From a virus, in IMG/VR virus record IMGVR_UViG_3300028591_000144: a stretch of DNA of 64,000 nucleotides; one strand, 5' to 3'. Numbering within the stretch: position 1 is the first letter of the stretch; each line of letters begins with the position of its first letter. Position numbers and translations under genes: made by a program. Below are positions 164 through 13,559 of the stretch, one piece after another. The notes beneath the pieces are model-generated. The model saw only the letters and a list, made by a program, of their open reading frames with translations. It had not been told where the DNA came from and made no database searches.

Positions 164-229
164 TCTAATTCCTTGCTCGGTATCCAGCAAAATACACAAA
201 ATTATAAGAAAAAAGATAAGGAGAAAAAA

Positions 230-535
230 ATGAAAACTAATCTTATTTATGGTACGAAATGCAAACTTACTGTTGTTGATCTGTTTAGTTGGCACTGGGA
301 GCTAACTGATGAATTTCATATGCTTCAAGATGCAGTAAATCGTGCACAAGATATTTTTAATGGTCTTTCTCAGTTTAATCCAGATCGCATTCTTGAAATT
401 TTTATTACAGATGTAAATACTGGTGAAATTCTTGCTGAATGTGAACATGATGATATTATAGAAGAATATGATCCATGGACTGAAGAAATTGATAACCCTA
501 ACTATGAACTTAATTCTATTAATTGGGACAGCTAA
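230..535 (+). CDS. Hypothetical protein (101 aa, acidic C-terminus)
   Basis: RBS AAGGAG 8 nt upstream of the ATG at 230. The track ORF 173..535 is in the same frame. Ends at TAA and is followed by a hairpin terminator. Confidence 0.6.
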   Translation: MKTNLIYGTKCKLTVVDLFSWHWELTDEFHMLQDAVNRAQDIFNGLSQFNPDRILEIFITDVNTGEILAECEHDDIIEEYDPWTEEIDNPNYELNSINWDS

Positions 536-580
536 TTTTTAATGGGGAGAGAAAAAATATCTCTACCCATTATTTTTATG

Positions 581-628
581 CGCGCCATTTTCGTGCGTAC
601 CTTACGAAAATGGCGCGATTTTTCTTTT
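581..628 (+). terminator. Rho-independent terminator (GCGCGCCATTTTCG...CGAAAATGGCGCG, then a T-tract)
   Basis: Perfect 13-bp stem followed by TTTTTCTTTT, directly read from the sequence. Confidence 0.7.
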
Positions 629-712
629 ATATACAATATGCACAATTTTTCCAGGATATATTTGTGCAAAATGCCATCTTGCATTTTTCCTGATAATATG
701 ATATATTATACT
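629..712 (+). promoter_or_regulatory. Early promoter/operator module, copy 1 of 10 (TGTGCAAAATGCCATCTTGCA operator-like palindrome overlapping the -35 TTGCAT; -10 TATATT)
   Basis: The ~85-bp element recurs at 1949, 2884, 3644, 4569, 5386, 5938, 6640, 8345 and 9381. Its core is TTGTGCAATATGCCATATTGCATTTTTCC, which contains the perfect inverted repeat TGCAATATG-C-CATATTGCA. Confidence 0.65.
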
Positions 713-737
713 TACAAAAAAGAAAGGAAGAAAAAAA

Positions 738-1883
738 ATGAACTACACTATGATTCGTGACAAGAATATGCTCCGCTTTACTTCTGATAATAATAAGAAT
801 TATACCTTTGATATTAATACTGGCATTTTTTATGGTATTTCTAACAAGCCTATTAAGACTCTCCCGACTGGTATGAGCACATGGCTGAATGATAATAAGC
901 ATGGGACAAATGCTCTTTTTCTTCTGGATTCTATTCGGCGCAATTACTGGCGCTATAATACCCCTATGCATAGCATGCCGAACCTGACTCAGATTGCTAA
1001 TAACTTTGGCAAGTATTTCAATCTGGTTGATCGGATTCAGAGTGTTGGCTATGTTGTTAATGATAGTTATGATTTTGATTTGGCAAGTCTTGATTATGTT
1101 GCTGAACATTTCAAAGTGTTTGCAAAATATATTAAAGAATTGCCAGAAGAAAGAAAGCGCAATTGTATCCGCCGTTTCATGTCAGATATGGGCGCAGAGA
1201 TTTTTGCGGAATCTCACAACCTTACTATTAATGAATATCTGAATGAAACCATGATTAGTGAAATTGCAGATTTTTGTAGGAGAAATCCTAAATATGATAC
1301 TCCGCAGTATGTCTCTTTGATTGTCTATTATATGACTCGTGGGCTTTGTGAGTTTCTTTCTTATCCTGAAGATTCTGAGTCTATTTATAAATTTGGCAAA
1401 GGACTTACATATATTTATAATTACTTTCAGATGTGTGAAGCTCTTGGTATTGTCCCTCAGAAAGAAAATTTCTTTAGTAGTTACATTAAAGTAATTAAAG
1501 AGTATCGGCTTAATAAAGAAAAGATCGACAATAAAAAAATTACAGATCATTACGCAAAAACTAATCTGTATTTTGAGGATGATAATTTCTTTACCTATAT
1601 TCCTCAGAGTCAGGAAGATTTTAAGCGTGAGGCTGATGCTCAGTCGAATTGTGTTTACTCTATGTATATGAAACAAGTTATGAAACATTCGACAAGCGTA
1701 GTTTTTGTCCGCAGGAAAGATGCTCCTGATACTTCGCTTATTACTTGTGAAGTTTCTAATACTGGGGAAATCTGGCAGTATCTTGCAAGATTTAATCATA
1801 GAGTACCAGAGAATACTCCTGAGCATGACTTTTATCTTAAATATAAGTCTTGGCTTAATAATAATTTTAAGACTGAGTGGTAA
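738..1883 (+). CDS. Hypothetical protein, 381 aa (possibly PcfJ-like)
   Basis: Long ORF with a strong RBS (AAGAAAGGAAG). Sits in its own promoter-terminator cassette. The PcfJ resemblance is only an impression from the C-terminal region. Confidence 0.7.
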   Translation: MNYTMIRDKNMLRFTSDNNKNYTFDINTGIFYGISNKPIKTLPTGMSTWLNDNKHGTNALFLLDSIRRNYWRYNTPMHSMPNLTQIANNFGKYFNLVDRIQSVGYVVNDSYDFDLASLDYVAEHFKVFAKYIKELPEERKRNCIRRFMSDMGAEIFAESHNLTINEYLNETMISEIADFCRRNPKYDTPQYVSLIVYYMTRGLCEFLSYPEDSESIYKFGKGLTYIYNYFQMCEALGIVPQKENFFSSYIKVIKEYRLNKEKIDNKKITDHYAKTNLYFEDDNFFTYIPQSQEDFKREADAQSNCVYSMYMKQVMKHSTSVVFVRRKDAPDTSLITCEVSNTGEIWQYLARFNHRVPENTPEHDFYLKYKSWLNNNFKTEW

Positions 1884-1902
1884 ATCCACTCAGTCTTTTT
1901 CC

Positions 1903-1951
1903 CGCCTGCTTCACGCACGTTCCTTTGTGTGAAGCAGGCGTCTTTCATTTT
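1903..1951 (+). terminator. Hairpin terminator CGCCTGCTTCAC-GCACGTTCCTTTGT-GTGAAGCAGGCG plus T-tract (second of a tandem pair)
   Basis: A first hairpin, ACTGAGTGG-TAAAT-CCACTCAGT, lies at 1870-1896. The loop sequence GCACGTTCCTTG is shared with the terminators at 3600, 4520 and 6592. Confidence 0.75.
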
Positions 1952-2037
1952 GTATATAGTTTATACAATTTCCAAGCTCTTTTTTTGTGCAATATGCCAT
2001 ATTGCATTTTTCCCGATAGTATGTTATATTATAAAAG
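1949..2037 (+). promoter_or_regulatory. Early promoter/operator module, copy 2
   Basis: Contains TTTTTTGTGCAATATGCCATATTGCATTTTTCCCGATAGTATGTTATATTATAAAAG, i.e. the palindrome, a -35 TTGCAT and a -10 TATATT. Confidence 0.65.
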
Positions 2038-2095
2038 CAATAGGAAATGATGATAAACCTATTGACATTAAAAAAATGAGGTAAAAAAAATTATT

Positions 2096-2791
2096 ATGGA
2101 AAAAGAAAAAGTTGAATTGACTTCTCAGTCTCGTATTATGATTATTGATACTGAAACTACCAATAGTCTTGATGATCCTGTGGTTTATGACGTTGGTTTT
2201 GAAGTTTTTGATCTGGAAGGAACTACTTATGAAAGTTGTTCCATGATTAATACTGAAGTATTTAATGACCCCGCGCTTATGTCTACGGCTTATTATGCTG
2301 ATAAGATTCCACAGTACATGGATAGAGTTCTGACTGGCCAGAGCGTTATGATTCCTTGGAAATCTATTAAAACTACTATTAAAAATAGTATTATTCGCAA
2401 TAATTGTGAAGTTGTTTGCGCTCATAATGCTCGTTTTGATAGTCATGCTTTGAACCTTACTCAGCGATATATTACTACCTCTAAGTGGAGATACTTTCTT
2501 CCTTATGGGACTTCTCAGTGGTGGGATACCCTTCGAATGGCAAGAGAAATCTTGAAAAATAATGCTGATTATAGACAGTTTTGTCTTGACAATGGATATG
2601 TAACCAGTCGAAATGTAAACCGCTATACAGCAGAAGTTATTTATCGTTTTCTTACTGGTGAAAATGATTTTAACGAAGCGCATATGGGTTTGGATGATGT
2701 ACGAATTGAAAAAGAGATTTTCCTTTACTGCATTCGCCAGAATCCGGAAATTGATGGTCGCCTTTGGAAGCCCAAAGATTCAATTACATAA
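2096..2791 (+). CDS. DEDDh-family 3'-5' exonuclease (DnaQ/epsilon-like), paralogue 1
   Basis: Exo I motif IIDTETT, Exo II motif CAHNARFD and Exo III motif HMGLDDV are all present, in the right order. Confidence 0.85.
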   Translation: MEKEKVELTSQSRIMIIDTETTNSLDDPVVYDVGFEVFDLEGTTYESCSMINTEVFNDPALMSTAYYADKIPQYMDRVLTGQSVMIPWKSIKTTIKNSIIRNNCEVVCAHNARFDSHALNLTQRYITTSKWRYFLPYGTSQWWDTLRMAREILKNNADYRQFCLDNGYVTSRNVNRYTAEVIYRFLTGENDFNEAHMGLDDVRIEKEIFLYCIRQNPEIDGRLWKPKDSIT

Positions 2792-2883
2792 TATATAAAT
2801 AGGAATGTATTTCTATACATTCCTATTTTAATTCACGCGCCATTTGCGAGTGTCCACCCCCGCAAATGGCGCGATTTTTCTTT

Positions 2884-2965
2884 TATATACAATATGCCCA
2901 ATTTTTCCAGGATATATTTGTGCATATTACCATATTGCAATTTTCCTATAATTTGATATAATAGA
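2884..2965 (+). promoter_or_regulatory. Early promoter/operator module, copy 3
   Basis: Conserved motif with the palindrome TGCATATTACCATATTGCA. Preceded by hairpin terminators at 2800-2830 and 2836-2886. Confidence 0.6.
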
Positions 2966-3009
2966 AACTGTCAAAAGGATAAAAAAAACATAATTATTAA
3001 AAAATCCTA

Positions 3010-3038
3010 TTGACAATTTTCATAAAATTTGTTATAAT
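3010..3038 (+). promoter_or_regulatory. Consensus sigma70 promoter (TTGACA, 17-nt spacer, TATAAT)
   Basis: -35 TTGACA at 3010-3015, exactly 17 nt of spacer, -10 TATAAT at 3033-3038. About 30 nt upstream of the HAD gene start. Confidence 0.75.
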
Positions 3039-3069
3039 ATAATTACCAAAAGAAAAGGAGAACAGAAAA

Positions 3070-3534
3070 ATGAGTAAAGCAATTTATTTTGACATGGATG
3101 GTACACTTGATGACCTTTATGGTGTAGATGGTTGGCTCGAAAGTCTGCGGAAGTTTCAGACTAAGCCTTACAGAGAAGCAAAGTCTTTGCAGGATATGAG
3201 ACTTTTAAGCAATTTGCTTCTTGATCTTCAAGCTCTTGGTTATCATATTGGAATTGTTTCATGGGGCAGTAAGCAGTCCACAGAGGAATATCTTGAAAGA
3301 GTCCGTACTGCTAAACTCAAGTGGCTTCAAAAGCATATGGGTAGAATTATTTTTGATGAAATTAAAATTGTGCAGTATGGAACGCCGAAAAGTTCTGTTG
3401 TAGATTTTAAAGATGGAATCCTGTTTGATGATGAACAGCAGAACAGAGAAAACTGGGAAGGCACTTCTTATGACGAGACTAATATCCTTGAGATTCTGTC
3501 TGGTCTGGTGCTGGATGAAGTAGGGCTTCTGTAA
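3070..3534 (+). CDS. HAD-superfamily phosphatase (motif I FDMDGTL)
   Basis: N-terminal DxDGT motif is typical of HAD phosphatases and nucleotidases. Own consensus promoter and triple-hairpin terminator. Confidence 0.75.
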   Translation: MSKAIYFDMDGTLDDLYGVDGWLESLRKFQTKPYREAKSLQDMRLLSNLLLDLQALGYHIGIVSWGSKQSTEEYLERVRTAKLKWLQKHMGRIIFDEIKIVQYGTPKSSVVDFKDGILFDDEQQNRENWEGTSYDETNILEILSGLVLDEVGLL

Positions 3535-3599
3535 AAAGAAGCCCTGTATAAAAATATTTAAAGAGAGTGTATAAAAATACACTCTCTTTAATTTGGCGC

Positions 3600-3640
3600 T
3601 TCCTCGGCGCACGTTCCTTGCGCTGAGGAAGCGAGTTTTC
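3600..3640 (+). terminator. Hairpin terminator CTTCCTCGGCGC-ACGTTCCT-TGCGCTGAGGAAG (third of three hairpins after 3534)
   Basis: Inverted repeats read directly. The loop is shared with other early-region terminators. Confidence 0.7.
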
Positions 3641-3643
3641 GAT

Positions 3644-3728
3644 ATTGTATAATATGTACAATTTTTCTAAGATATTTTTGTGCAATATGCCATATTGCAT
3701 TTTTCCTGATAGTGTGTTATATTATAAA
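3644..3728 (+). promoter_or_regulatory. Early promoter/operator module, copy 4
   Basis: TTGTATAATATGTACAATTTTTCTAAGATATTTTTGTGCAATATGCCATATTGCATTTTTCCTGATAGTGTGTTATATTAT. Confidence 0.65.
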
Positions 3729-3783
3729 AGCAATAAGGAATGATGATAAACCTATTGACATTAAAAAAAATGAGGTAAAAAAA

Positions 3784-4476
3784 ATGGACATGCCTAAGGT
3801 TGAATTGACAGAAGATTCTCGTATTATGATTATTGATACTGAAACGACCAACAGTCTCGATGATCCTGTAGTCTATGATGTTGGTTTTGAAGTTTTTGAT
3901 CTAGCTGGGAACACCTATGAGTCTTGCTCAATGATTAATACAGAGGTTTTTAACGACCCCTCTTTAATGAGTACTGCTTATTATGCCGATAAGATTCCTC
4001 TGTATATGGATAAAGTTTTGACTGGTCAAAGTGTTATGATTCCTTGGAAATCAATCAAAACTACTATTCGTAATAGCATTGAGCGTAATCATTGTGAGGT
4101 AGTGTGCGCACATAATGCAAGGTTTGACTGTAAGTCTCTTAATTTGACTCAGCGTTATATCACCACTTCTAAATGGAGATATTTTCTGCCTTATGGCACG
4201 CAGTGGTGGGACACTCTTAAAATGGCAAGAGAAATTCTTAAGCAGGATTCTAATTACCGGCAGTTTTGTCTTGATAATGGATATGTAACAGCAAAGAATG
4301 TTTCTAGATATACTGCTGAAGTCATTTATAGATATCTTTCTGGTGAAAATGATTTTAATGAAGCTCACATGGGGCTTGACGATGTGCGTATTGAAAAAGA
4401 AATTTTTCTTTATTGTATGCGTCAGAATCCAGAAATTGATGGGCGTCTGTGGAAGCCTAAAGATATTCTTGAATAA
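3784..4476 (+). CDS. DEDDh-family 3'-5' exonuclease, paralogue 2 (about 85% identical to the protein of 2096..2791)
   Basis: Same IIDTETT, CAHNARFD and HMGLDDV motifs. The promoter module and leader (CCTATTGACATTAAAAAAAATGAGG) are duplicated with the gene. Confidence 0.85.
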   Translation: MDMPKVELTEDSRIMIIDTETTNSLDDPVVYDVGFEVFDLAGNTYESCSMINTEVFNDPSLMSTAYYADKIPLYMDKVLTGQSVMIPWKSIKTTIRNSIERNHCEVVCAHNARFDCKSLNLTQRYITTSKWRYFLPYGTQWWDTLKMAREILKQDSNYRQFCLDNGYVTAKNVSRYTAEVIYRYLSGENDFNEAHMGLDDVRIEKEIFLYCMRQNPEIDGRLWKPKDILE

Positions 4477-4519
4477 TATATAAAAGGAGAGTGTATTTTT
4501 TATACACTCTCCTTTATTT

Positions 4520-4567
4520 GGCGCTTCCTCGGCGCACGTTCCTTGCGCTGAGGAAGCGAGTTTTCGA
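4520..4567 (+). terminator. Hairpin terminator GCGCTTCCTCGGCGC...TGCGCTGAGGAAGCG plus TTTTCG
   Basis: Preceded by a second hairpin, AGGAGAGTGTAT-TTTTT-ATACACTCTCCT. Confidence 0.7.
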
Positions 4568-4568
4568 T

Positions 4569-4650
4569 GTTGTATAATATGTACAATTTTTCCAGGATAT
4601 TTTTGTGCAATATGCCATATTGCATTTTTCCTAAAATCTGTTATAATAAT
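4569..4650 (+). promoter_or_regulatory. Early promoter/operator module, copy 5 (-10 TGTTATAAT, extended)
   Basis: TTGTATAATATGTACAATTTTTCCAGGATATTTTTGTGCAATATGCCATATTGCATTTTTCCTAAAATCTGTTATAATAATG. Confidence 0.65.
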
Positions 4651-4709
4651 GACTGTAAGGGAAACGAAGGTACTCCCTAACGAAATTAAAAATTAAGGAG
4701 ATTTAAAAA

Positions 4710-5309
4710 ATGGCAAAATATTCTATGGAAGATTGTAGAGAGAATAATCTGTTTGAAGAAGCAAAGGAGCGTTATGAAACTACTTCTCCTCGCTGGAAGA
4801 AATCTTGGTGGCAGGTCATCTGTGATATTTGGACAAGAGCAGGGGATTGGCATGAAAAATATGATCTTGATAAAATTGCAAAAGTAATTATTAACAAGAT
4901 CAAAGATGCTGTCGATCAGGTGAAGCGCGCAGTTACTCGGACAGGCATTAATATTATCGAGAGAGTTACAACCACTTTTGCGACTGGAACAAAGCTTTGT
5001 TATCTGTTTAAGTTTTATGACAGTAATGGGGATTTGCTCTTTTCTAAAGTTGGGACTACTGAGCGCACTATTCGGCAGAGACTTACAGAAGAAATCAAAT
5101 ATTATCGTAAACGTGGTATTGATGTTAATTATGCCACAGTTGAAAGTGTATTTGATACCGGAGATCTTGAGCCAGAAGGAGCACAGGATTTTGCTAAAGG
5201 GTATTACACTAAGAAGCATAAAGGACACTATATGCGGAATGATCGGTTTACTTGCGATATTAACGTAGAAGGATTTAATAAGCTGATTACAGACTATCTT
5301 GCCGCATAA
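4710..5309 (+). CDS. Hypothetical protein with a GIY-YIG / T5orf172-like segment (CYLFKFYDSNGDLLFSKVGTTERTIRQRL)
   Basis: The ORF has a clear RBS (TTAAGGAG). The domain call is pattern-based only: Y-x-F...KVG-T...R resembles the GIY-YIG/T5orf172 core. Confidence 0.5.
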   Translation: MAKYSMEDCRENNLFEEAKERYETTSPRWKKSWWQVICDIWTRAGDWHEKYDLDKIAKVIINKIKDAVDQVKRAVTRTGINIIERVTTTFATGTKLCYLFKFYDSNGDLLFSKVGTTERTIRQRLTEEIKYYRKRGIDVNYATVESVFDTGDLEPEGAQDFAKGYYTKKHKGHYMRNDRFTCDINVEGFNKLITDYLAA

Positions 5310-5385
5310 ATAAATACTTAGAAAAGAAGGCTTTAGCGCCTTCTTTTCGGGTGTCCACCCACGAAAAGAAGGCGTCTTTTTATTT

Positions 5386-5468
5386 CTATATAATTTATAT
5401 AATTTCCAGGCAAATTTTTTGTACAATATGCCATATTGCAATTTTCCTGATAATATGATAATATAGAA
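5386..5468 (+). promoter_or_regulatory. Early promoter/operator module, copy 6
   Basis: Contains TTTTTTGTACAATATGCCATATTGCAATTTTCCTGATAATATGATAATATAG. Confidence 0.6.
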
Positions 5469-5494
5469 CCATCAAGAGAAAGGAGATCAATATC

Positions 5495-5866
5495 GTGGCT
5501 ACTAAATTTAAAGAATCTGAGATTCAAAAAATGATGAGAAAGCTGGACTTGTCTCGTGAAGATGCAATTCAGCTTCTTCAAGATGATGAAGATGATGTAA
5601 CTGAAGAACTGACTAAAGAACAGGAAAAAGTCGTCAAAGAAATGACTCAAGCTGATCGGAAGAAAGAAAGCACTCCTCGAAAGAGAGAGAAAAAAGCTGA
5701 TGAAGATAAACGGCATCTAATGGCTCTGCTGGATATTGCAATCGGCCATAATCCTGATGTAACAGAATATACTGTAACAAATGCAGAACGAGAAGTTACA
5801 TTTCGTTACAAAAATACTCTGTATCGTCTGACTCTTATGAAACCCAGAGAGAAGAAAACTGAATAG
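5495..5866 (+). CDS. Hypothetical acidic/basic protein, family B (paralogue of 7313..7714). GTG start, TAG stop.
   Basis: RBS AAAGGAG upstream of the GTG. Shares the N-terminal motif MRKLDLSREDAIQLL with 7313's MQKLKISREEAIDML. This is the only early gene that ends in TAG. Confidence 0.6.
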   Translation: MATKFKESEIQKMMRKLDLSREDAIQLLQDDEDDVTEELTKEQEKVVKEMTQADRKKESTPRKREKKADEDKRHLMALLDIAIGHNPDVTEYTVTNAEREVTFRYKNTLYRLTLMKPREKKTE

Positions 5867-5890
5867 TTATAAGCGCCCACTCTTATGGGC

Positions 5891-5934
5891 GCTTTCTTGT
5901 CGGGTGTGAGCACTCGACAAGAAAGCGTATTTTC
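5891..5934 (+). terminator. Hairpin terminator GCTTTCTTGTCGGGTGTGAGCACTCGACAAGAAAGCG plus T-tract
   Basis: Preceded by the hairpin GCGCCCACTCTTATGGGCGC. Read directly. Confidence 0.7.
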
Positions 5935-5937
5935 GAT

Positions 5938-6022
5938 GTTGTATAATATATACAATTTCCAGGCAGATTTTTTGTATAATTTGCTATATTGCAATTTTCC
6001 TAAAATCTGATATAATAATAAT
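5938..6022 (+). promoter_or_regulatory. Early promoter/operator module, copy 7
   Basis: TTGTATAATATATACAATTTCCAGGCAGATTTTTTGTATAATTTGCTATATTGCAATTTTCCTAAAATCTGATATAATAAT. Confidence 0.6.
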
Positions 6023-6112
6023 TGTCGAGAGGGCAATAGCAAGCCAAAGGCCACGGCGAATGGAGATAAAGAATAAGGCTCTCCCAAATTACAAATAATT
6101 TGAAAAACCCTC

Positions 6113-6141
6113 TTGACATTGTAGAAAATCTGTGCTATAAT
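6113..6141 (+). promoter_or_regulatory. Consensus sigma70 promoter (TTGACA-17-TATAAT) inside a CCTCTTGACA inverted-repeat context
   Basis: -35 at 6113-6118, 17-nt spacer, -10 at 6136-6141. Same AAACCCTCTTGACA context as the 8.5-9.9 kb promoter arrays. Confidence 0.75.
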
Positions 6142-6173
6142 AAGCACATCAAATCAAGAAAGGAATTGATACT

Positions 6174-6539
6174 ATGGCAGATAAAGGAATGACTATTAAG
6201 CAGGGATTTACTCGTGCGCTGGAAGATTACCGCAAACTTGGTAATATTGAGATGGTAGAGTTTTTTGAGAAGCGTCTTGAACAGCTCAATAAAAAAAGTG
6301 ATGCTCCGAAGAAAAGAACTCCTCGTCAGATCGAAAATGATGCTTACAAGGAAATCATTCTCAATGGAATGAACGGAGAGACTGAGTATACTATTGATGA
6401 TATGCTGATGTACTTCGGACTTCCTCTTGAGATGAAAACTCAGCGTGTTTCTGCTCTTCTGTCTCAGTTGGTAGAAGAAAATAAAGTTGAGCGTGTTTCT
6501 GATACCAAGGGGCATCGTAAGTTTAAACTCGTAGCATAA
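6174..6539 (+). CDS. Small basic protein, family A (paralogues at 8810, 23213 and 51711)
   Basis: Shared architecture: a central K/R-rich stretch (KKSDAPKKRTPRQ) and a C-terminal hydrophobic-x-x-A end. The TTGATACTATG start context is shared with 8810. Confidence 0.7.
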   Translation: MADKGMTIKQGFTRALEDYRKLGNIEMVEFFEKRLEQLNKKSDAPKKRTPRQIENDAYKEIILNGMNGETEYTIDDMLMYFGLPLEMKTQRVSALLSQLVEENKVERVSDTKGHRKFKLVA

Positions 6540-6591
6540 GACCTGCTGGATTTTACCCCCTATGTAAAAACATAGGGGATTTTCTTTTTGG

Positions 6592-6640
6592 CGGTTCATT
6601 TGCGTGCGTTCCTTGCGCAAATGAACCGAATTATCTCTTT
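6592..6640 (+). terminator. Hairpin terminator CGGTTCATTTGCG-TGCGTTCCT-TGCGCAAATGAACCG
   Basis: Preceded by the hairpin CCCCTATG-TAAAAA-CATAGGGG. Read directly. Confidence 0.7.
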
Positions 6641-6753
6641 TGTATACTTTGCATAAAATTTATTATTATTTTTTGTATAATATTTTATATTGCATTTTTC
6701 CTAAAATCTGTTATAATAGTATATGTAAATAAGAAAAAAAAAGGAGATAAATA

Positions 6754-7185
6754 ATGAAGTATCTTATTATGAAATGTGAAGAATTGAATGACCAATACGA
6801 ATGTGACACTAATCGTACTCCTATTACTATGACAGATAATTGGAAAACTTGGTATAAAGATAATAACCCTGATTATTATTTTGAAGTTTATGAATATAAA
6901 AATAATCATTTTACTTGTATTAAAGACTATAATACTTCTATGGAAAATGGAATGGTTTTTGTCTGGTTTGATGAAGATACGCCAGAAGATGAGTTTAATG
7001 TAATTACACGTTTTCCAAATTATAATAGACATATGCCTATGCCAACAGACTTGTATGCCAGAGCAAAAAGAGGAGAAGATTTTGATGATTCGCTTTCAAG
7101 CTGTGGCTATGTCTCTTGGAATGAAGGCGATAAGTACTACGCTTATACAGAATATTATGATAATCGAATTTGTTGTCCTTATTAA
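6754..7185 (+). CDS. Hypothetical protein, 143 aa
   Basis: RBS AAAGGAG. Followed by the long hairpin TGCGCTTTACCAT...ATGGTAAAGCGCA. Confidence 0.65.
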   Translation: MKYLIMKCEELNDQYECDTNRTPITMTDNWKTWYKDNNPDYYFEVYEYKNNHFTCIKDYNTSMENGMVFVWFDEDTPEDEFNVITRFPNYNRHMPMPTDLYARAKRGEDFDDSLSSCGYVSWNEGDKYYAYTEYYDNRICCPY

Positions 7186-7254
7186 ATAAAAAATGCGCTT
7201 TACCATATAAAATAATTTATTTTTAAAAAAAAATGGTAAAGCGCATAACTTATA

Positions 7255-7290
7255 TTGACTTTATAAAAAAAATATGATATAATATATATA
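7255..7290 (+). promoter_or_regulatory. First copy of the second conserved promoter class (TTGACTTTATAAAAAAAATATGATATAATATATATAG)
   Basis: Same motif as the ~30 copies downstream (see the feature at 18863). Confidence 0.65.
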
Positions 7291-7312
7291 GTTAATATAA
7301 GGAGTATTAAAA

Positions 7313-7714
7313 ATGAGTAAAAAAGGCTTAGATGAAAATCAAATTACTTTTTTAATGCAAAAATTAAAAATATCTCGTGAAGAAGCTATTGATATGCTAG
7401 CTTATGATGATGATGTAAATCACGATCGTCCTACAGAGCATGACTTAACTCCAGATCAAAAAGCTTTTGTCCAAGATATGGTAAGACATTGTGAACATAA
7501 AAAATATGGCCATGTTGAAAGAAATCGTAAACCTAATGATTTAAAAATTGCAATTATGGCGGAAATTGCTGAATTTTTACGAGAAGATGCACAAGGTCAA
7601 GTGTATGAAGATGTAGAATTAACAAATATTTCTCGAATGATGCACTTTAAAGTAGGAAATAAAGAGTTTGATCTACAATTAATTGAAAAAAGACATCCAA
7701 ATAAAGAAAAATAA
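7313..7714 (+). CDS. Hypothetical protein, family B paralogue
   Basis: RBS AAGGAG. N-terminus similar to the protein of 5495..5866. Confidence 0.7.
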   Translation: MSKKGLDENQITFLMQKLKISREEAIDMLAYDDDVNHDRPTEHDLTPDQKAFVQDMVRHCEHKKYGHVERNRKPNDLKIAIMAEIAEFLREDAQGQVYEDVELTNISRMMHFKVGNKEFDLQLIEKRHPNKEK

Positions 7715-7971
7715 TATCTTTTTATGAGTTTTTAGGGTAAAAATAATACTTTTTACCCTATTTTTATATAATTTTATAATGGTATTTTTAGCGCATTCTC
7801 CACGCGCGTCCCTCGCCTGGAGAATGCGTTTTTACTATTATATTATACTTTTGTATTTTTTTTATATATTATTTTACTTTTTATACAAAATAATATTTTC
7901 CTGTAATACTTTTTCTTTTATTAATAACAGTCTAATAGCAATATGTTATAGTGGTTTACATAAGAAAGTCG

Positions 7972-8000
7972 TTGACATAATATCTTTTTTTTGTTATAAT
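7972..8000 (+). promoter_or_regulatory. Consensus sigma70 promoter (TTGACA-17-TATAAT)
   Basis: -35 at 7972-7977, 17-nt spacer, -10 at 7995-8000. Immediately upstream of the RBS and ATG at 8038. Confidence 0.7.
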
Positions 8001-8037
8001 GACCACAGAAACCAAGAGAAAAGGAGAGTACAGAAAA

Positions 8038-8133
8038 ATGACTTGGACTTTTATAATTTTGGGTACAATTATTGGATGTTTATGCGGCATGGCCGTATAT
8101 GTACAGATTGAAGAGTGGAAGGATCGACATTGA
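8038..8133 (+). CDS. Small hydrophobic peptide (31 aa, MTWTFIILGTIIGCLCGMAVYVQIEEWKDRH)
   Basis: Perfect RBS AAAAGGAGAG 8 nt upstream, consensus promoter, single predicted TM helix. Below the track's 60-aa cutoff. Confidence 0.5.
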   Translation: MTWTFIILGTIIGCLCGMAVYVQIEEWKDRH

Positions 8134-8279
8134 TGGATACTTATATTACTCTTACTATCCTTTTAGTTTTAAGTATATATGGCATTTATCATCTTCTAAA
8201 AGCTTTTGCAGAGCATGAGCAATTAGAAAAGCGCCAATTTTTTAAACCATTACCTCAATATAAAGGGAAGGATAGATAA
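8133..8279 (+). CDS. Small hydrophobic peptide (48 aa, MDTYITLTILLVLSIYGIYHLL...), start overlaps the previous stop (ATGA)
   Basis: Translationally coupled with 8038..8133. Followed by two hairpin terminators at 8264-8335. Confidence 0.45.
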   Translation: MDTYITLTILLVLSIYGIYHLLKAFAEHEQLEKRQFFKPLPQYKGKDR

Positions 8280-8344
8280 AAATCCTTCCCTTTAAAACGC
8301 TTTCTTGTCGGGCGCTCACCCCGGCAAGAAAGCGTGTTTGACTT

Positions 8345-8432
8345 ATTGTATAATAAATGTAATTTTCCAGGCGATCTTTTTGTGCAATATTCCATCTTGT
8401 ATTTTCCGAAAAACCTGCTATAATAATAAGTG
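8345..8432 (+). promoter_or_regulatory. Early promoter/operator module, copy 9
   Basis: TTGTATAATAAATGTAATTTTCCAGGCGATCTTTTTGTGCAATATTCCATCTTGTATTTTCCGAAAAACCTGCTATAATAATAAG. Confidence 0.6.
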
Positions 8433-8522
8433 TCAAGAGGGAGAGGCGCCGAGCCGCAAGAGTTATGGTTTATCTGCGCGGTTGCCAAAGCCATAAAAGA
8501 AAAATAAAATGCCGAAAACCTC

Positions 8523-8551
8523 TTGACAAGCCACTGAAAATGTGGTATAAT
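8523..8551 (+). promoter_or_regulatory. Consensus sigma70 promoter with extended -10 (TTGACA-17-TGGTATAAT), member of tandem array 1
   Basis: CCTCTTGACAAGCCACTGAAAATGTGGTATAATGAATACAGTCAAGAGG. The promoter is framed by the inverted repeat CCTCTTGAC/GTCAAGAGG. Confidence 0.75.
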
Positions 8552-8633
8552 GAATACAGTCAAGAGGGGTGGTTGGAGCCCATACCCCACGACCGCAAGG
8601 CCAAAAATTTTCAAAGAAATTTGAAAAACCCTC

Positions 8634-8662
8634 TTGACAAACCACACAATGTGTGCTATAAT
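8634..8662 (+). promoter_or_regulatory. Consensus sigma70 promoter (TTGACA-17-TATAAT), array 1
   Basis: -35 at 8634-8639, -10 at 8657-8662. Same CCTCTTGACAA framing. Confidence 0.75.
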
Positions 8663-8809
8663 AAGTATGTAAAGAGGACAGGGGAGAACGCAAGATAGAA
8701 ATTGGGACTTGCTAATGACCCTCCTCCCCCTCCTCTAAACATAAGCCTTGCCGTCGCTAAAAGGCATGAGAATCTGGCGACAAAAAAATTTAGTAAAGAG
8801 GTTGATACT

Positions 8810-9163
8810 ATGTCTACTAAGAAGATGTCCTATGTTGTTGCTGTTGAGAACGCTATCAATGGCAAGATTGATGATGAAGTCATTGAGCGCCTGACTGCGC
8901 TGAAGGCTTCGCTGGAGAAGCGTGCTTCGCGCAAGTCCGAAGGCCCCACCAAGGCGCAGAAGGCTAATGCTGAGCTGGCTGAGCGTATCGCTAATGCGAT
9001 GGTCGCTGGCACTGTCTACGATACCGAGAGTATCAAGGGGCTGGTCGAGGAACTGGCGAACGCCACTCCGCAGAAGGTGTCTCCCCTGATGAAGCACCTT
9101 GTTGCTGAGGGTCGTGTGACCTCTGAGAAGGTCAAGGGCAAGGCTACTTACACCCTTGCCTAA
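8810..9163 (+). CDS. Small basic protein, family A paralogue. Unusually GC-rich.
   Basis: Shares KRASRKSEGPTKAQKANAEL and the GKATYTLA C-terminus with the protein of 6174..6539. Codon usage is strongly G/C-biased compared with its neighbours. Driven by the promoter array at 8.4-8.7 kb. Confidence 0.75.
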   Translation: MSTKKMSYVVAVENAINGKIDDEVIERLTALKASLEKRASRKSEGPTKAQKANAELAERIANAMVAGTVYDTESIKGLVEELANATPQKVSPLMKHLVAEGRVTSEKVKGKATYTLA

Positions 9164-9193
9164 GTAAAAGAGGGGGACTTCCCCCTCTAAATA

Positions 9194-9305
9194 AAAAATC
9201 TTGCCCTTACATGGGCGCAGGGTGGAAGAGCCACGAAACTACAAGTTGCTCTTGCTTGTAATGTAGTGCCACTAAACTGCGTCAATGTAAGGGCAAGATT
9301 TTTTA
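9194..9305 (+). other. Long perfect hairpin (15-bp stem ATCTTGCCCTTACAT...ATGTAAGGGCAAGAT around a ~75-nt GC-rich loop). A structured RNA or elaborate terminator.
   Basis: Read directly. Flanked by the hairpins AAAGAGGGGGACTTCCCCCTCT (9168-9192) and TTTCTCGCTTGCTCAACGG...CGTTGAGCAAGCG (9325-9372). Confidence 0.5.
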
Positions 9306-9380
9306 TTTAAAGTTAAAAGAGTAGTTTCTCGCTTGCTCAACGGTGGTGCGCCATCGTTGAGCAAGCGTCTTTATCTTTTT

Positions 9381-9462
9381 ATACAAATTGCACAATTTCC
9401 AAGTAATATATTTGTGCAATATTCCATCTTGTAATTTTCCTGAAATCTGCTATAATAATAAG
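9381..9462 (+). promoter_or_regulatory. Early promoter/operator module, copy 10
   Basis: ATACAAATTGCACAATTTCCAAGTAATATATTTGTGCAATATTCCATCTTGTAATTTTCCTGAAATCTGCTATAATAATAAG. Confidence 0.6.
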
Positions 9463-9594
9463 TGTCAAGAGGGGACGTCGCCCAAAAGGGACTCCTCTGG
9501 GAGATAAGGATTGCTTGTGAAACCTTACTGCACTGTGGAGTAACAAGAACCAAATGGGACTTGAAAAATGTTGCAGTCTTTTTCAAAAAACCTC

Positions 9595-9623
9595 TTGACA
9601 AACCCCACGGAATGTGGTATAAT
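9595..9623 (+). promoter_or_regulatory. Consensus sigma70 promoter (TTGACA-17-TGGTATAAT), tandem array 2
   Basis: CCTCTTGACAAACCCCACGGAATGTGGTATAATAAAAGTGTCAAGAGG. Confidence 0.75.
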
Positions 9624-9713
9624 AAAAGTGTCAAGAGGGGAACCGAACAGGACAAGTAAGGCACCGCGGATGACCCCAAAGCGACGAGAGGTTGATAAAA
9701 GTTTAAAACCCTC

Positions 9714-9742
9714 TTGACAAACTATACAATGTGTGCTATAAT
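9714..9742 (+). promoter_or_regulatory. Consensus sigma70 promoter (TTGACA-17-TATAAT), array 2
   Basis: CCTCTTGACAAACTATACAATGTGTGCTATAATAAGAATGTCAAGAGG. Confidence 0.75.
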
Positions 9743-9857
9743 AAGAATGTCAAGAGGAATAGACCGAAACCTCCTGTGGAAGAGTTTCAAAAGTGGGAAT
9801 ACAAGGGCCTCCCAAACACTCAAAAAAATAATTGCGCAATAAAATTTGAGAAACCCC

Positions 9858-9886
9858 TTGACAAGCCTTAAAAAGTATGGTATAAT
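9858..9886 (+). promoter_or_regulatory. Consensus sigma70 promoter (TTGACA-17-TGGTATAAT), array 2, closest to the 9922 gene
   Basis: CCCCTTGACAAGCCTTAAAAAGTATGGTATAATAAATATAG. Confidence 0.75.
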
Positions 9887-9921
9887 AAATATAGAAAAAA
9901 ACAAGAAAGGAAATAAAAACA

Positions 9922-10152
9922 ATGGCTGAAATTACTTATGATGTGGTAAAAAATATTGGCGTGATTGCTGATAATGGCGCGTGGGAAACGCAGGTAAATA
10001 TGATTTCTTGGAATCACGGGGCGCCTAAATTTGACATTCGCAAGTGGAATGTTGAAACTGACCGTATGAGCAAGGGTATTTCTTTAACTGAAAGTGAAGC
10101 TCGTGAACTGGTAAAGGTTCTGACTAAATACTTTGAGGAAGAGGATGAATAA
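9922..10152 (+). CDS. PC4-like / YdbC-like ssDNA-binding protein (76 aa)
   Basis: The segment FDIRKWNVETDRMSKGISLTESEARELVKVL matches the PC4 C-terminal domain signature (IDIREYW...KGISLNPEQW..L). Confidence 0.6.
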   Translation: MAEITYDVVKNIGVIADNGAWETQVNMISWNHGAPKFDIRKWNVETDRMSKGISLTESEARELVKVLTKYFEEEDE

Positions 10153-10154
10153 CA

Positions 10155-10322
10155 ATGAAAACCTATGTTGTTAAAGAATATTTGAACAACTATAGGGGTT
10201 TTCGGTGGGTAACTGTTGCTTACAATCCTGAAGAAAAAGTAGAAGAGCATTGCAAACCACCTTGTCTTTTTGAGGACTATAAATCTACTGAAAGTAAAAT
10301 CCATAAGTATGAAGTTGAATAA
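10155..10322 (+). CDS. Small protein (55 aa, MKTYVVKEYLNNYRGFRWVTVAYNPEEK...)
   Basis: The ATG lies 2 nt after the upstream stop. Followed by the terminator at 10344-10392. Below the track cutoff. Confidence 0.45.
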   Translation: MKTYVVKEYLNNYRGFRWVTVAYNPEEKVEEHCKPPCLFEDYKSTESKIHKYEVE

Positions 10323-10343
10323 ACTTCATACTTTTTTTATTAG

Positions 10344-10392
10344 CGGTTTCTGCTCGGGCGCCTTTGGCGCGCAGAAACCGAGTTTTAATTAA
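10344..10392 (+). terminator. Hairpin terminator CGGTTTCTGC...GCAGAAACCG plus T-tract. Marks the end of the early cassette region.
   Basis: Read directly. Confidence 0.7.
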
Positions 10393-10689
10393 TTAAAAAA
10401 TAATGAAATTTTACACACAAAAAAGAAGCAATAGGTAACAAAGTTGTAATTCCCATTATCGCGGCTCGCAAGCGACCGCAGGGAGCGCAGCGATGCCGAA
10501 ATTTTCATTATACCATATTTTACAAATTTTGTCAACTGTTTTTTTGCACAAATTTCTTCGAAAATTTTTCCCATTTTTGTGCATAATGCCGAATTGTTAA
10601 TTAATTAACTAACAATCTGTAACCGTTTTGTAACTATTTGTTTCCAGCTTGTAACTTTTACCTTAAGCCAGCCCTTCCGCGGCGAATGA

Positions 10690-10930
10690 CCTAAAAAATA
10701 CCTATAAAGCCCTCGCGCGGTGACAAAAGTCGACCTCTAACTAAGCGCCCTATGGCGCAACAAATCAACTCTGGTCCGGCTGCCCGAGGACAACCTAGCC
10801 CGGGGACAAATATCGACCTAGCAAAACTCTATAAAGGCCCGGGGTGGTGACAAAAGTTGGCCTTCTAGATAACAAAAGTAGCATTTTCCTGAAAGTATAA
10901 CGCCGCAACAAAAGTTGACTTTTTAAAAAA
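10690..10930. repeat. Four or five dispersed copies of GGTGACAAAAGTYGRCC (GGTGACAAAAGTCGACC, GGGACAAATATCGACC, GGTGACAAAAGTTGGCC, GCAACAAAAGTTGAC)
   Basis: Read directly. Spacing is 40-60 bp. Confidence 0.55.
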
Positions 10931-10945
10931 AATTTGATATAATAT
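10913..10945 (+). promoter_or_regulatory. Class-2 phage promoter TTGACTTTTTAAAAAAAATTTGATATAATATT. It drives a short structured transcript rather than a CDS.
   Basis: Followed by the hairpins CCTCTTTTTTTGAGG and CCGCACG...CGTGCGG and then a T-tract. Confidence 0.55.
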
Positions 10946-11099
10946 TAAAAAAACCTCTTTTTTTGAGGCCGCACGCTCTTTAAACCGCCTGGTCTAAAAT
11001 CTCTGAACCGTGCGGCTATTATTTTTAGTCGAGCGGTCGATAAACGACAGTCGATTATAGAACAATTCCTGCTGTATCAACCTCTCTGCATTAATCAGT

Positions 11100-11700: not shown

Positions 11701-11704
11701 TGCA

Positions 11705-11732
11705 TAAAAAAAGAGCGCGCAATCGCGCACTC
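11705..11732. terminator. Bidirectional hairpin AAGAGCGCGCAATCGCGCACTCTT flanked by A- and T-runs
   Basis: It terminates the minus-strand genes 12225-11733. Confidence 0.65.
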
Positions 11733-12038: not shown

Positions 12039-12225
12039 TATCTCCTTGGCTGTTCATAATTTCTTTGATAGCCAATAATAATGCATCAGTTCTCTTAAAG
12101 ACCCAAGCAATATAATATTTATTGCGAGGATTCTCTGTGCGACCTATTGGATAAATGCCATAGTCATCTTCTAAAAGCTCTTTTATTCGCTTAGAATAAA
12201 TAACTTTACAATTCGTTCGCATCAT
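12022..12225 (-). CDS. Small minus-strand protein (67 aa). Overlaps 11733..12038 by 17 nt.
   Basis: A GGAGATAGG RBS-like sequence lies upstream on the minus strand. Confidence 0.4.
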   Translation of the reverse strand: MMRTNCKVIYSKRIKELLEDDYGIYPIGRTENPRNKYYIAWVFKRTDALLLAIKEIMNSQGDSAYGN

Positions 12226-13470: not shown

Positions 13471-13559
13471 CAGTCATTCCTCCATTCGTCGAACGATTGT
13501 CGATCGATTGACGACTCCCCCTATGACTGGAAATTCTCTCTCTCGACATATATTTATTA

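What the first reader, a model, noticed from the sequence alone, without database searches (positions are those of the whole stretch)
560..10392. Early region built from ~13 single-gene cassettes with a shared operator-containing promoter and stereotyped multi-hairpin terminators
Ten copies of an ~85-bp element precede successive genes. Its centre is the perfect 19-bp palindrome TGCAATATGCCATATTGCA, overlapping a -35 TTGCAT and followed by a TATATT/TATAAT -10. Every gene then ends in two or three consecutive hairpins. Several share loop sequences (GCACGTTCCTTGCG, GTGTCCACCC) although their stems differ. This compensatory change argues that the hairpins are functional. The result is a tandem array of insulated, co-regulated but independently terminated units. 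A genome-wide palindromic operator fits a single phage or host repressor or activator switching the whole early class. The products are nucleic-acid-oriented: two DEDDh exonuclease paralogues, a HAD phosphatase, a GIY-YIG-like protein, a PC4-like ssDNA binder and small basic proteins.
Basis: seen in the sequence. Interest (0 to 1): 0.7.

Follow-up and report, generated by a model that had tools for sequence, protein, structure and literature searches.

The report
Phage early-gene terminator–promoter cassette array
A large rumen phage drives about a dozen small early genes from ten copies of one 135-base "terminator hairpin plus promoter" module, a layout already known from T4-like phages; the new point is that the promoter core recurs almost letter for letter in many other gut phages and mobile elements, so some common, still unknown factor may read it.

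Summary
Ten same-strand copies of a repeated element lie between 581 and 9456, and there are none in the other 54 kb. The unit is about 135 nt, longer than the ~85 bp reported. It has a GC-clamped 15-bp hairpin with very strong covariation (98.7% of cells paired, 11 of 15 pairs with double changes), then a T tract, then a sigma-A-type extended -10 promoter (TGnTATAAT) whose weak -35 (TTGYAW) sits inside a conserved core. The exact 9-1-9 palindrome occurs in only 3 of the 10 copies. The family consensus, TTTGTGCAATATTCCATCTTGCAA, is an imperfect dyad. The module is conserved in relatives. Cassette order and content differ between relatives, with breaks at module edges, as in the PeSL cassettes of T4-type phages. 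The consensus 21-mer occurs in 109 metagenome contigs, giving 84 non-redundant sites, and 80 of these have a -10 at the correct distance. In many lineages the two segments flanking the core carry lineage-specific perfect palindromes. I therefore read the core as a constant promoter-recognition element and the flanking segments as the likelier repressor sites. No binding protein was identified. Two paralogous winged-helix proteins encoded in the array are candidates. "Genome-wide" is not supported.

The parts
581..707 (+). Module 1: hairpin 581-617, core/palindrome 665-683, -35 679-684, -10 702-707; drives the PcfJ-like gene 738-1883
   Evidence: PcfJ Pfam 2.9e-17
1903..2030 (+). Module 2: hairpin 1903-1940, exact palindrome 1988-2006, -10 2025-2030; drives exonuclease paralogue 2096-2791
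2836..2962 (+). Module 3: hairpin 2836-2873, core 2921-2939, -35/-10 2935-2962; followed by a perfect consensus promoter at 3010-3038; drives the HAD-like gene 3070-3534
3597..3723 (+). Module 4: hairpin 3597-3633, exact palindrome 3681-3699, -10 3718-3723; drives exonuclease paralogue 3784-4476
4522..4647 (+). Module 5: hairpin 4522-4558, exact palindrome 4606-4624, -10 4642-4647; drives the 199-aa gene 4710-5309
5336..5464 (+). Module 6: hairpin 5336-5374, core 5422-5440, -10 about 5457-5464; drives the 123-aa gene 5495-5866
5889..6016 (+). Module 7: hairpin 5889-5928, core 5975-5993, -35/-10 5989-6016; followed by a leader unit and consensus promoter 6113-6141; drives the winged-helix 121-aa gene 6174-6539
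6592..6717 (+). Module 8: hairpin 6592-6628, diverged core 6676-6694, -10 6712-6717; drives the 143-aa gene 6754-7185
7790..7901 (+). Decayed module: family hairpin 7790-7828 and TTTTCC 7896-7901 in exact register (68 nt after the hairpin), but core and -10 lost; the downstream genes 8038-8279 use the consensus promoter 7972-8000
   Evidence: read against the consensus
8297..8424 (+). Module 9: hairpin 8297-8335, core 8383-8401 (equals the family consensus), -10 8419-8424; followed by leader units and consensus promoters 8523-8551 and 8634-8662; drives the winged-helix paralogue 8810-9163
9330..9456 (+). Module 10: hairpin 9330-9367, core 9415-9433, -35/-10 9429-9456; followed by leader units and consensus promoters 9595-9623, 9714-9742 and 9858-9886; drives the PC4-like gene 9922-10152 plus 10155-10322
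10343..10380 (+). Family-type GC-clamped hairpin that closes the array, with no promoter attached
   Evidence: read
7255..7760 (+). Cassette without the module: promoter TTGACT-17-TGATATAATATATATAG (the promoter class used by the rest of the genome), gene 7313-7714, hairpin 7733-7760. Its counterpart in relative L121 lies at a different place.

Best explanation
The region is the right-hand part of an early-gene ('host-takeover'-type) cassette array of a large, low-GC rumen phage. Each cassette is bounded by a composite terminator-promoter module of about 135 nt.

Module layout, from 5' to 3':
1. A GC-clamped 15-bp hairpin plus T tract. Together with a gene-specific AU-rich hairpin just upstream, it terminates and insulates the preceding unit.
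2. Box 1, TTGCACAA, at about -74.
3. Slot 1, AATTTTCCAGG.
4. A conserved core, TTTGTGCAAtATnCCATnTTGCAa, from about -52 to -29.
5. Slot 2, TTTTCCT, from -27 to -22.
6. An extended -10, TGnTATAAT.

Transcription starts about 7 nt after the -10. The RNA begins with a leader whose 5' end is sequestered in a stem (GUCAAGAGG...CCUCUUGAC), followed by a strong ribosome-binding site and a small gene.

What is shown:
- the anatomy of the module;
- selection on hairpin pairing;
- a sigma-A-type extended -10 geometry;
- conservation of the module in relatives, with orthologous copies keeping their own peculiarities, so the similarity between copies is not just recent copying;
- confinement to one region of the window;
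- cassette rearrangements between relatives that break at module edges.

What is inferred:
- Host sigma-A RNA polymerase transcribes these units early in infection.
- The repeated modules supply the homology for gain, loss and shuffling of cassettes, as PeSLs do in T4-type phages.
- The conserved core is read by a sequence-specific factor shared by many gut Clostridia phages and mobile elements. I favour an activator or recruitment element centred near -40.
- The lineage-specific flanking slots are where this phage's own shut-off regulator would bind.
For: Copy number, strand and confinement.

Hairpin:
- Fixed register in 35 distinct copies.
- 98.7% of 525 cells paired, 11 of 15 pairs with changes on both sides, 136 such cells. 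Slid controls pair in 36-50% of cells. 0 of 500 shuffles reach the observed score.
- 8 of 10 pass a terminator scan, and the region holds 23 terminator-like sites against 6.1 expected.

Promoter:
- TG extension in 31 of 35 copies, TATAAT or TATATT in 31 of 35, spacer 16-17 nt in 33 of 35.
- The -35 is always TTGYWW and never TTGACA.

Conservation:
- 14 copies in L121 and 9 in L124 (exonuclease 87% and 80% identical).
- A diverged form is present in L128 (56% identical).

Cassette plasticity:
- Gene order is scrambled between the window and L124.
- Whole cassettes are present or absent between the window and L121.
- Homology between window module 10 and its L121 orthologue ends within about 5 nt after the -10, and different cargo follows.

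Precedent: PeSLs are ~100-bp sigma-70 promoter plus stem-loop motifs that flank ORFans and mediate indels (PMC2839356; PMC4122927).

Wider family:
- The 21-mer occurs in 109 metagenome contigs, giving 84 non-redundant sites.
- 80 have a -10 with at least 5 of 6 matches at 15-17 nt, 55 have the TG, and 62 have a box-1-like motif.
- 28 share an 8-mer or longer between slot 1 and slot 2, including perfect palindromes.
- 42 of the 109 contigs encode homologues of this array's genes.

Leader stems: all 8 units fold with the closing stem, with z-scores from -1.05 to -4.6.

Other promoter classes in the window:
- Perfect consensus promoters cluster at 3-11 kb.
- TATAATATATATAG occurs 18 times against 0.29 expected, across the rest of the window.
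Against: - There are no transcript data, so start sites, termination and early timing are inferred from sequence alone.
- The T tracts after the module hairpin are modest: 3-5 T after a 2-nt gap.
- The one window-specific cassette (7255-7789) is not flanked by two intact modules, so not every rearrangement is module-mediated.
- The comparison shows a break at the module edge, but it does not show a clean reciprocal product.
- Sites for the wider-family analysis were chosen by an exact 21-mer, so conservation inside those 21 positions cannot be judged from that set.
- No protein has been tied to the core, to box 1 or to the slots.
Confidence: 0.7

Rival explanations
1. The 19-bp dyad is the operator of one dimeric repressor or activator, phage or host, which switches the whole class on or off by binding over the -35.
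For: - The dyad TGCAAnAT-N3-ATnTTGCA is kept in close and distant relatives.
- It is centred near -39/-40 and overlaps the -35.
- Its -35 half is never allowed to become the TTGACA consensus, although perfect TTGACA promoters exist a few hundred bases away. This suggests a constraint other than sigma binding.
- Box 1 is the reverse complement of the left arm (TTGCACAA), giving three related boxes.
- The array encodes two paralogous proteins with a C-terminal winged helix. The AlphaFold2 model has pLDDT 83.5, and the Foldseek top hits are the DNA-binding domains of Fur/PerR, MarR, ArsR and MecI. Fur boxes are also 9-1-9 dyads (my own knowledge).
Against: - The dyad is perfect in only 3 of 10 copies.
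- The best-conserved positions (central CCAT, spacer TTTTCC) are not symmetric.
- The same core is shared by lineages with unrelated gene content. These carry their own perfect palindromes in the spacer and upstream, next to a divergent small ribbon-helix-helix-like gene, which is the usual arrangement for a repressor.
- It is not genome-wide.
- No cognate protein has been shown to bind it.
Confidence: 0.3
2. The modules are promoters for a phage-encoded sigma factor, a sigma-appropriation complex (like T4 MotA/AsiA) or a phage RNA polymerase. On this reading they belong to a middle class, not an immediate-early class, and the perfect consensus promoters are the true immediate-early set.
For: - About 45 bp upstream of the -10 is conserved, far more than sigma-A needs.
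- The -35 is non-consensus while the -10 is extended, as in T4 middle promoters (my own knowledge).
- Several genes carry a module promoter and consensus promoters in tandem, which resembles the dual early-plus-middle control seen in T4.
Against: - The -10 is a textbook TGnTATAAT at 16-17 nt from a TTG, which suffices for host sigma-A.
- No sigma-factor or RNA polymerase domain was found among the window's ORFs. The window is only part of the genome.
- The core is also used by small mobile elements that are unlikely to carry their own polymerase.
Confidence: 0.12
3. The hairpin-bearing repeats are sites for a site-specific cassette recombinase, like integron attC sites. The promoter activity is secondary.
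For: - The layout is an array of cassettes.
- The hairpins keep their structure while their sequence varies.
- Cassette content and order differ between relatives.
Against: - The stems are perfect, with no extrahelical bases, and there is no GTTRRRY-type core.
- No integrase or recombinase family hit was found in the window.
- Every module carries a complete promoter in fixed register.
- Homologous recombination between ~135-nt repeats explains the rearrangements without a dedicated enzyme.
Confidence: 0.04
4. The repeats are selfish miniature mobile elements with no regulatory role.
For: There are many copies, and they are also found in unrelated sequence contexts.
Against: - All copies point the same way and are always intergenic, at a fixed distance before a ribosome-binding site and gene.
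- There are no terminal inverted repeats or target duplications.
- Orthologous copies keep their own peculiarities across relatives.
- The copy whose gene acquired another promoter has decayed (7790-7901), as expected if the others are kept by selection.
Confidence: 0.02

Closest known systems
PeSL (promoter-early stem-loop) cassettes of T4-type phages (Arbiol et al. 2010, PMC2839356; Comeau et al. 2014, PMC4122927)
   Same: - A repeated ~100-bp intergenic motif that combines a strong sigma-70-type promoter with a stable stem-loop acting as terminator or attenuator.
- Placed before small genes of mostly unknown function in a plastic region.
- Differences between relatives are whole cassettes bounded by the motifs.
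   Different: - The host type and the phage are unrelated to T4: the promoter style is Firmicutes-like and no T4 core genes are seen.
- The hairpin here always lies upstream of the promoter, at one fixed distance, and has covarying stems. PeSL stem-loops occupy five different positions relative to the -35 and -10 boxes.
- The promoter carries a long conserved core that is not explained by sigma binding.
- Mini-circles were not tested.
[quoted passage not shown] 1998, as described in PMC6873191)
   Same: - A Gram-positive-type lytic phage.
- About two dozen small early genes packed into roughly 12 kb as many short operons, with strong host-type promoters and strong ribosome-binding sites.
   Different: - No single repeated composite module or shared dyad has been described there, as far as I know.
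- It is not known whether the present array lies in a terminal repeat.
Activator-dependent phage promoters with sites at or around the -35: T4 middle promoters (MotA box plus extended -10) and lambda cII sites (TTGC-N6-TTGC) (my own knowledge)
   Same: - A non-consensus -35 embedded in a conserved protein-recognition sequence.
- A good, extended -10.
- A temporal class defined by that sequence.
   Different: - There is no sequence similarity to either.
- No MotA, AsiA or cII homologue was found.
- Dependence on an activator is untested.
Multi-copy phage operators: cluster A mycobacteriophage stoperators (PMC9283540, PMC6550527) and P1 C1 operators (my own knowledge)
   Same: One recognition sequence repeated many times in intergenic regions, with one orientation relative to transcription.
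   Different: - Stoperators are 13-14-bp asymmetric sites spread over the whole genome that stop elongation.
- Here the sites are always part of a promoter, are confined to one 9-kb region, and are shared across elements with different putative repressors.

Membership tests
PeSL-type composite promoter/terminator cassette | Repeated intergenic motif that contains a sigma-70-type promoter | tested here: met
   TTGYWW, 16-17 nt, TGnTATAAT in the module copies
PeSL-type composite promoter/terminator cassette | Stable stem-loop that is part of the same motif | tested here: met
   15-bp GC-clamped hairpin in a gap-free register 68 nt before the spacer TTTTCC in 35 copies; 98.7% of cells paired
PeSL-type composite promoter/terminator cassette | Located mainly before small genes of unknown function in a variable region | tested here: met
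   Most products have no function-bearing family hit; the region differs in order and content between relatives
PeSL-type composite promoter/terminator cassette | Insertions, deletions and replacements between relatives are bounded by the motifs | tested here: inconclusive
   Breaks of homology fall at module edges in several cases. One window-specific cassette (7255-7789) lacks intact flanking modules, and no clean reciprocal product was seen.
PeSL-type composite promoter/terminator cassette | Promoter and terminator activity shown in vivo; excised mini-circles | not testable with these tools
   Needs reporter assays and PCR or sequencing of circles from infected cells
PeSL-type composite promoter/terminator cassette | Host genome is a T4-type myovirus | tested here: not met
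   No T4-like core gene among the window's families and no megablast match to 50,697 phage records. The array works like PeSLs but is not a member of that phage lineage.
Intrinsic (Rho-independent) terminator | GC-rich stem followed by a T run on the transcribed strand | tested here: met
   8 of 10 module hairpins and most gene-proximal hairpins pass the scan; 23 sites against 6.1 expected. The T runs are short.
Palindromic operator of a dimeric regulator | Dyad symmetry kept across copies and relatives | tested here: inconclusive
   The consensus keeps 7 of 9 symmetric positions. The dyad is exact in only 3 of 10 copies, and the strongest conservation is asymmetric.
Palindromic operator of a dimeric regulator | A cognate DNA-binding protein | not testable with these tools
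   The candidates are only inferred: winged-helix paralogues 6174-6539 and 8810-9163
Integron attC cassette | Imperfect hairpin with extrahelical bases and GTTRRRY core, with a linked IntI integrase | tested here: not met
   The stems are perfect, no such core is seen in the alignment, and there is no integrase hit in the window
Stoperator-type genome-wide operator | Sites spread over the whole genome, independent of promoters | tested here: not met
   All ten sites lie within 9 kb, each inside a promoter, and there are none in the other 54 kb

The most novel reading that the evidence does not exclude
The ~24-bp core, TTTGTGCAATATTCCATCTTGCAA, with its partner box TTGCACAA about 22 bp upstream, is a previously undescribed promoter element. 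It would be read by one conserved factor, either a host protein of gut Clostridia or a protein common to many of their phages and mobile elements. It would serve as a portable 'chassis': different lineages plug their own operators into the two flanking slots. The huge-phage early arrays would be one use of this chassis, multiplied by duplication.
Probability: 0.3. Interest if true: 0.75.

Novelty: new variant of a known kind. Interest (0 to 1): 0.55.

Why it matters
- It extends the PeSL principle, in which repeated promoter-terminator modules both organise early expression and drive cassette shuffling, from T4-like phages of Gram-negative hosts to an unrelated large phage of the rumen.
- The fixed-register, strongly covarying hairpin is an unusually clean natural example of a selected terminator/insulator.
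- The conserved core gives a simple sequence handle for finding early regions and switch regions in uncultivated gut phages and mobile elements.
- If one factor reads the core, that factor would be a general entry point into transcription control of these elements. The core and its slots would also be a ready-made, insulated and regulatable promoter design for gut Clostridia.

Tried and rejected
1. Megablast of 560-10392 against 50,697 phage records gave no match.
2. IMG/VR scans gave only chance hits or nothing. The exact palindrome gave one chance hit inside a coding region. ATATTGCAWTTTTCCT gave 118 single chance hits. The protein-based IMG/VR scan with the exonuclease found nothing.
3. The genome-contig scan with the degenerate palindrome gave 120 or more single hits, almost all inside genes of unrelated taxa. 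Only about 5 have the family context (Lachnospiraceae and Clostridia MAGs). There is no sign of a host regulon.
4. Rfam at a permissive threshold over 1-17 kb gave only sub-threshold microRNA-type chance hits, and no known RNA family for the hairpins or leaders.
5. The palindrome arms, and box 1 versus box 2, do not covary, so a cruciform or RNA stem made from the dyad is rejected.
6. A second, upstream promoter inside the module (the TATAAT-like string in TTGTATAATATG) is rejected. It has no usable -35 spacing and the string is not conserved in relatives.
7. A tblastn search for a ribbon-helix-helix repressor like those next to the core in other elements found no homologue in the window.
8. 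A literature search for the motif strings found nothing.
9. GIY-YIG for the 199-aa protein had no support.
10. NCBI contig GCA_016648615.1, which carries a 58%-identical exonuclease, could not be read because no DNA was returned.

Full report
**Observation.** The exact palindrome TGCAATATG-C-CATATTGCA (9-bp arms around a central C) occurs at 1988, 3681 and 4606. With up to 3 mismatches seven sites are found against 0.03 expected by chance. Reading the region adds three more diverged copies, at 2921, 5975 and 6676. A profile built from the ten finds all ten on the + strand (E 1e-10 to 7e-22). The next hit in the 64-kb window has E=0.29, and a relaxed pattern again finds only these ten. The element is local to one region, not genome-wide.

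**Anatomy.** The repeated unit is longer than reported. I extracted 35 distinct copies from the window and from relatives L121, L122 and L124. In all of them the hairpin that precedes the promoter lies in the same gap-free register. Positions are given relative to a start assumed 7 nt after the -10.
- Hairpin: about -132 to -95.
- T tract.
- Box 1, TTGCACAA plus TTTTCC: about -74 to -62.
- CCAGG.
- Core, TTTGTGCAAtATnCCATnTTGCAa: about -52 to -29.
- TTTTCC: -27 to -22. This has the highest information content in the alignment.
- Extended -10, TGnTATAAT.

The -10 is TATAAT or TATATT in 31 of 35 copies. The TG extension is present in 31 of 35, and the spacer is 16-17 nt in 33 of 35. The -35 is TTGCAA, TTGCAT, TTGTAA or TTGTAT, and never TTGACA. 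Box 1 is the reverse complement of the left arm of the dyad. Neither the two arms of the dyad nor box 1 and box 2 covary. These are therefore sequence-recognition sites, not a nucleic-acid stem.

**Hairpins.** Each intergenic region holds a gene-proximal AU-rich hairpin with a T run, and sometimes two. The GC-clamped module hairpin follows.
- The terminator scan finds 23 sites against 6.1 expected, and these include 8 of the 10 module hairpins.
- On an alignment of 35 module hairpins (A1), 98.7% of 525 cells form standard pairs.
- 11 of 15 pairs show changes on both sides, in 136 cells.
- When the partner column is slid by 1-3 positions, pairing falls to 36-50%. None of 500 shuffles reaches the observed score.

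The shared 'loop' strings also include the conserved top of the stem.

**Genes.** There are about 12 transcription units with 15 genes:
- a PcfJ-like protein;
- two exonuclease paralogues (PHROG 192 and 17; DxE, NARFD and HxxxxD motifs visible);
- a weakly HAD-like or deoxyribonucleotidase-like protein;
- a PC4-like protein (2e-8);
- several small proteins without family hits.

GIY-YIG is not confirmed. The 121-aa (6174-6539) and 117-aa (8810-9163) proteins are paralogues. The AlphaFold2 model of the first has pLDDT 83.5 and a C-terminal winged helix. Its best structural neighbours are the DNA-binding domains of Fur/PerR, MarR, ArsR/SmtB and MecI, although the E-values are weak.

**The phage.** The window carries a tmRNA, a ROOL RNA, ten tRNAs, an MVP-like protein, an RNA ligase, and SPFH and radical-SAM proteins. 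The same DNA occurs in an ENA metagenome assembly (ERZ27256846), and a closely related contig (L122) is from a bovine metagenome. There is no close match among deposited phages. Three promoter-like classes coexist.
- The module class: ten copies, 0.6-9.5 kb.
- Perfect TTGACA-17-TGnTATAAT promoters: 11 of the 15 best matches in 64 kb lie at 3-11 kb, often in tandem downstream of a module.
- TATAATATATATAG: 18 matches against 0.29 expected, spread over 7-62 kb.

This partition fits a temporal or regional promoter class. Timing itself is not shown.

**Relatives.** Homologues of the exonuclease led to related contigs.
- The module profile finds 14 copies in L121 (exonuclease 87% identical) and 9 in L124 (80%).
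- A diverged version is present in L128 (56%): TGCACAAAAAA, about 20 nt, TTTTGTGCAAAATnCCATCTTGC, 17 nt, TATAAT.
- Orthologous copies share their peculiarities. For example, the window copy at 6631 and the L121 copy at 9185 both lack CCAGG. The similarity among paralogous copies therefore reflects selection rather than recent homogenisation.
- One copy in the window has decayed in exact register (7790-7901). Its downstream genes have a consensus promoter at 7972.

**Cassette plasticity.** The window and L121 are collinear at about 92% identity over 224-7267, but differ by whole cassettes. The 7255-7789 cassette lies elsewhere in L121. About 2.3 kb of L121, holding two extra cassettes with modules, is absent from the window. 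Between the window and L124 the gene order is scrambled, and the matching segments start or end at modules. Window module 10 matches its L121 orthologue through the -10. Homology stops about 5 nt later and different cargo follows. This is the behaviour described for PeSLs of T4-type phages: ~100-bp sigma-70 promoter plus stem-loop motifs before ORFans, which mediate indels and mini-circles. The match is functional and architectural. This phage is not T4-like.

**The wider family.** This part changes the interpretation. A metagenome scan with the family-consensus 21-mer TTTGTGCAATATTCCATCTTG returned 109 contigs. They yield 84 sites that are less than 80% identical over 200 nt.
- 80 have a -10 with at least 5 of 6 matches at 15-17 nt.
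- 55 have the TG extension.
- 62 have a box-1-like motif.
- 42 of the 109 contigs encode homologues of this array's genes.

Other contigs have no such homologues and instead carry a divergently transcribed small ribbon-helix-helix-like gene. In many lineages the segment between box 1 and the core (slot 1) and the -35/-10 spacer (slot 2) carry the same lineage-specific perfect palindrome:
- ATACTAACGTTAGTAT in L320 and L294;
- ATACCCAnnnGGGTAT in L271 and L301;
- ATCTACATGTAGAT in L341;
- and others.

In the window's lineage both slots carry AATTTTCC. The simplest reading is a constant core used for promoter recognition or activation, with exchangeable operator slots beside it. The 21 positions themselves were fixed by the search, so their conservation cannot be judged from this set. 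The flanks are free of that bias.

**What could not be settled.**
- No protein is tied to the core.
- The bacterial-genome scan gave almost only chance hits.
- No sigma factor, RNA polymerase or integrase was found in the window, but the window is only part of the genome.
- The motif strings do not occur in the searched literature.

**Verdict.** The best explanation is a PeSL-like array of insulated early cassettes driven by sigma-A-type extended -10 promoters (confidence about 0.7). The single-operator model remains possible (about 0.3, and not exclusive of the main explanation), but the comparative data weaken it. The most novel reading still open is a shared, undescribed promoter element of gut Clostridia mobile elements with plug-in operator slots (about 0.3).

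Noticed in passing
window 2962-3019, 6017-6125, 8425-8809, 9458-9921: The leaders downstream of module and consensus promoters begin (T)GTCAAGAGG. This pairs with a CCTCTTGAC that contains the -35 of the next perfect consensus promoter. The result is tandem units of ~90-140 nt (one of ~50 nt), GC-richer than their surroundings and closed by an 8-10-bp stem. All 8 fold that way, with z-scores from -1.05 to -4.6. They could be 5' stabilisers, small RNAs or something else. There is no Rfam match.
   Followed up: partly
window 7278-62315 (18 sites): A third promoter-like motif, TGnTATAATATATATAG, has 18 matches against 0.29 expected. Nearly all are on the + strand and they are spread over the rest of the window. 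It probably marks the promoter class of the non-early genes.
   Followed up: partly
window 3010-9886: There are eight perfect 12/12 TTGACA-17-TGnTATAAT promoters on the + strand, often two or three in tandem before one gene (8810-9163; 9922-10152). The genes they precede include the two winged-helix paralogues and the PC4-like protein.
   Followed up: partly
window 9190-9310: A hairpin of about 110 nt with a long, nearly perfect stem lies between gene 8810-9163 and module 10. It has only a sub-threshold microRNA-type Rfam hit.
   Followed up: no
window 10640-14520: Three arrays of short repeats lie next to the array's end. GACAAAAGTYGRCC is at 10.7-10.9 kb. About 25 palindromes of the form GTAACATTTTGTTAC or CGACATTTTTGTCG are at 11.07-11.70 kb. 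GGGTTCAAATCTGACCCCATTAC is at 14.0-14.5 kb, beside a very AT-rich stretch at 13.6-14.0 kb. GC skew reverses here. The region looks like a replication origin or partition region.
   Followed up: no
window 15164-15930 and 61786-61856: The ORF starting at 15164 has several in-frame TAG codons, and a tRNA with anticodon TCA is encoded at 61786. This could be stop-codon recoding in part of the genome, or a pseudogene.
   Followed up: no
window 55784-56125, 56428-56574, 60103-63973, 62393-63012: The window holds a tmRNA, a 147-nt Rfam tRNA match not called by ARAGORN (possibly interrupted), a cluster of tRNAs, and a full-length ROOL RNA (274 bits).
   Followed up: no
window 37716-40163: An 815-aa protein carries major-vault-protein shoulder and repeat domains (1e-19), which is unusual in a phage.
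   Followed up: no
window 8001-10000: GC content is 42% here, against 30-36% in the neighbouring 2-kb windows. Gene 8810-9163 and the leader units look compositionally foreign.
   Followed up: no
window 10556-10606: A partial copy of the core (TTTTTGTGCATAATGCCGAATTGTTA) without a -10 lies next to a minus-strand perfect consensus promoter (10535-10507).
   Followed up: no
loci L252, L255, L261, L279, L284, L333, L341 (around the core site): In other metagenomic elements the same core promoter faces a divergent TTGACA-17-TGGTATAAT promoter and a small ribbon-helix-helix-like gene (GKTS..YNAK.YD...GES.N.FI..AI.ETMERD). Lineage-specific palindromes sit on both sides of the core, an arrangement that looks like a genetic switch.
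   Followed up: partly
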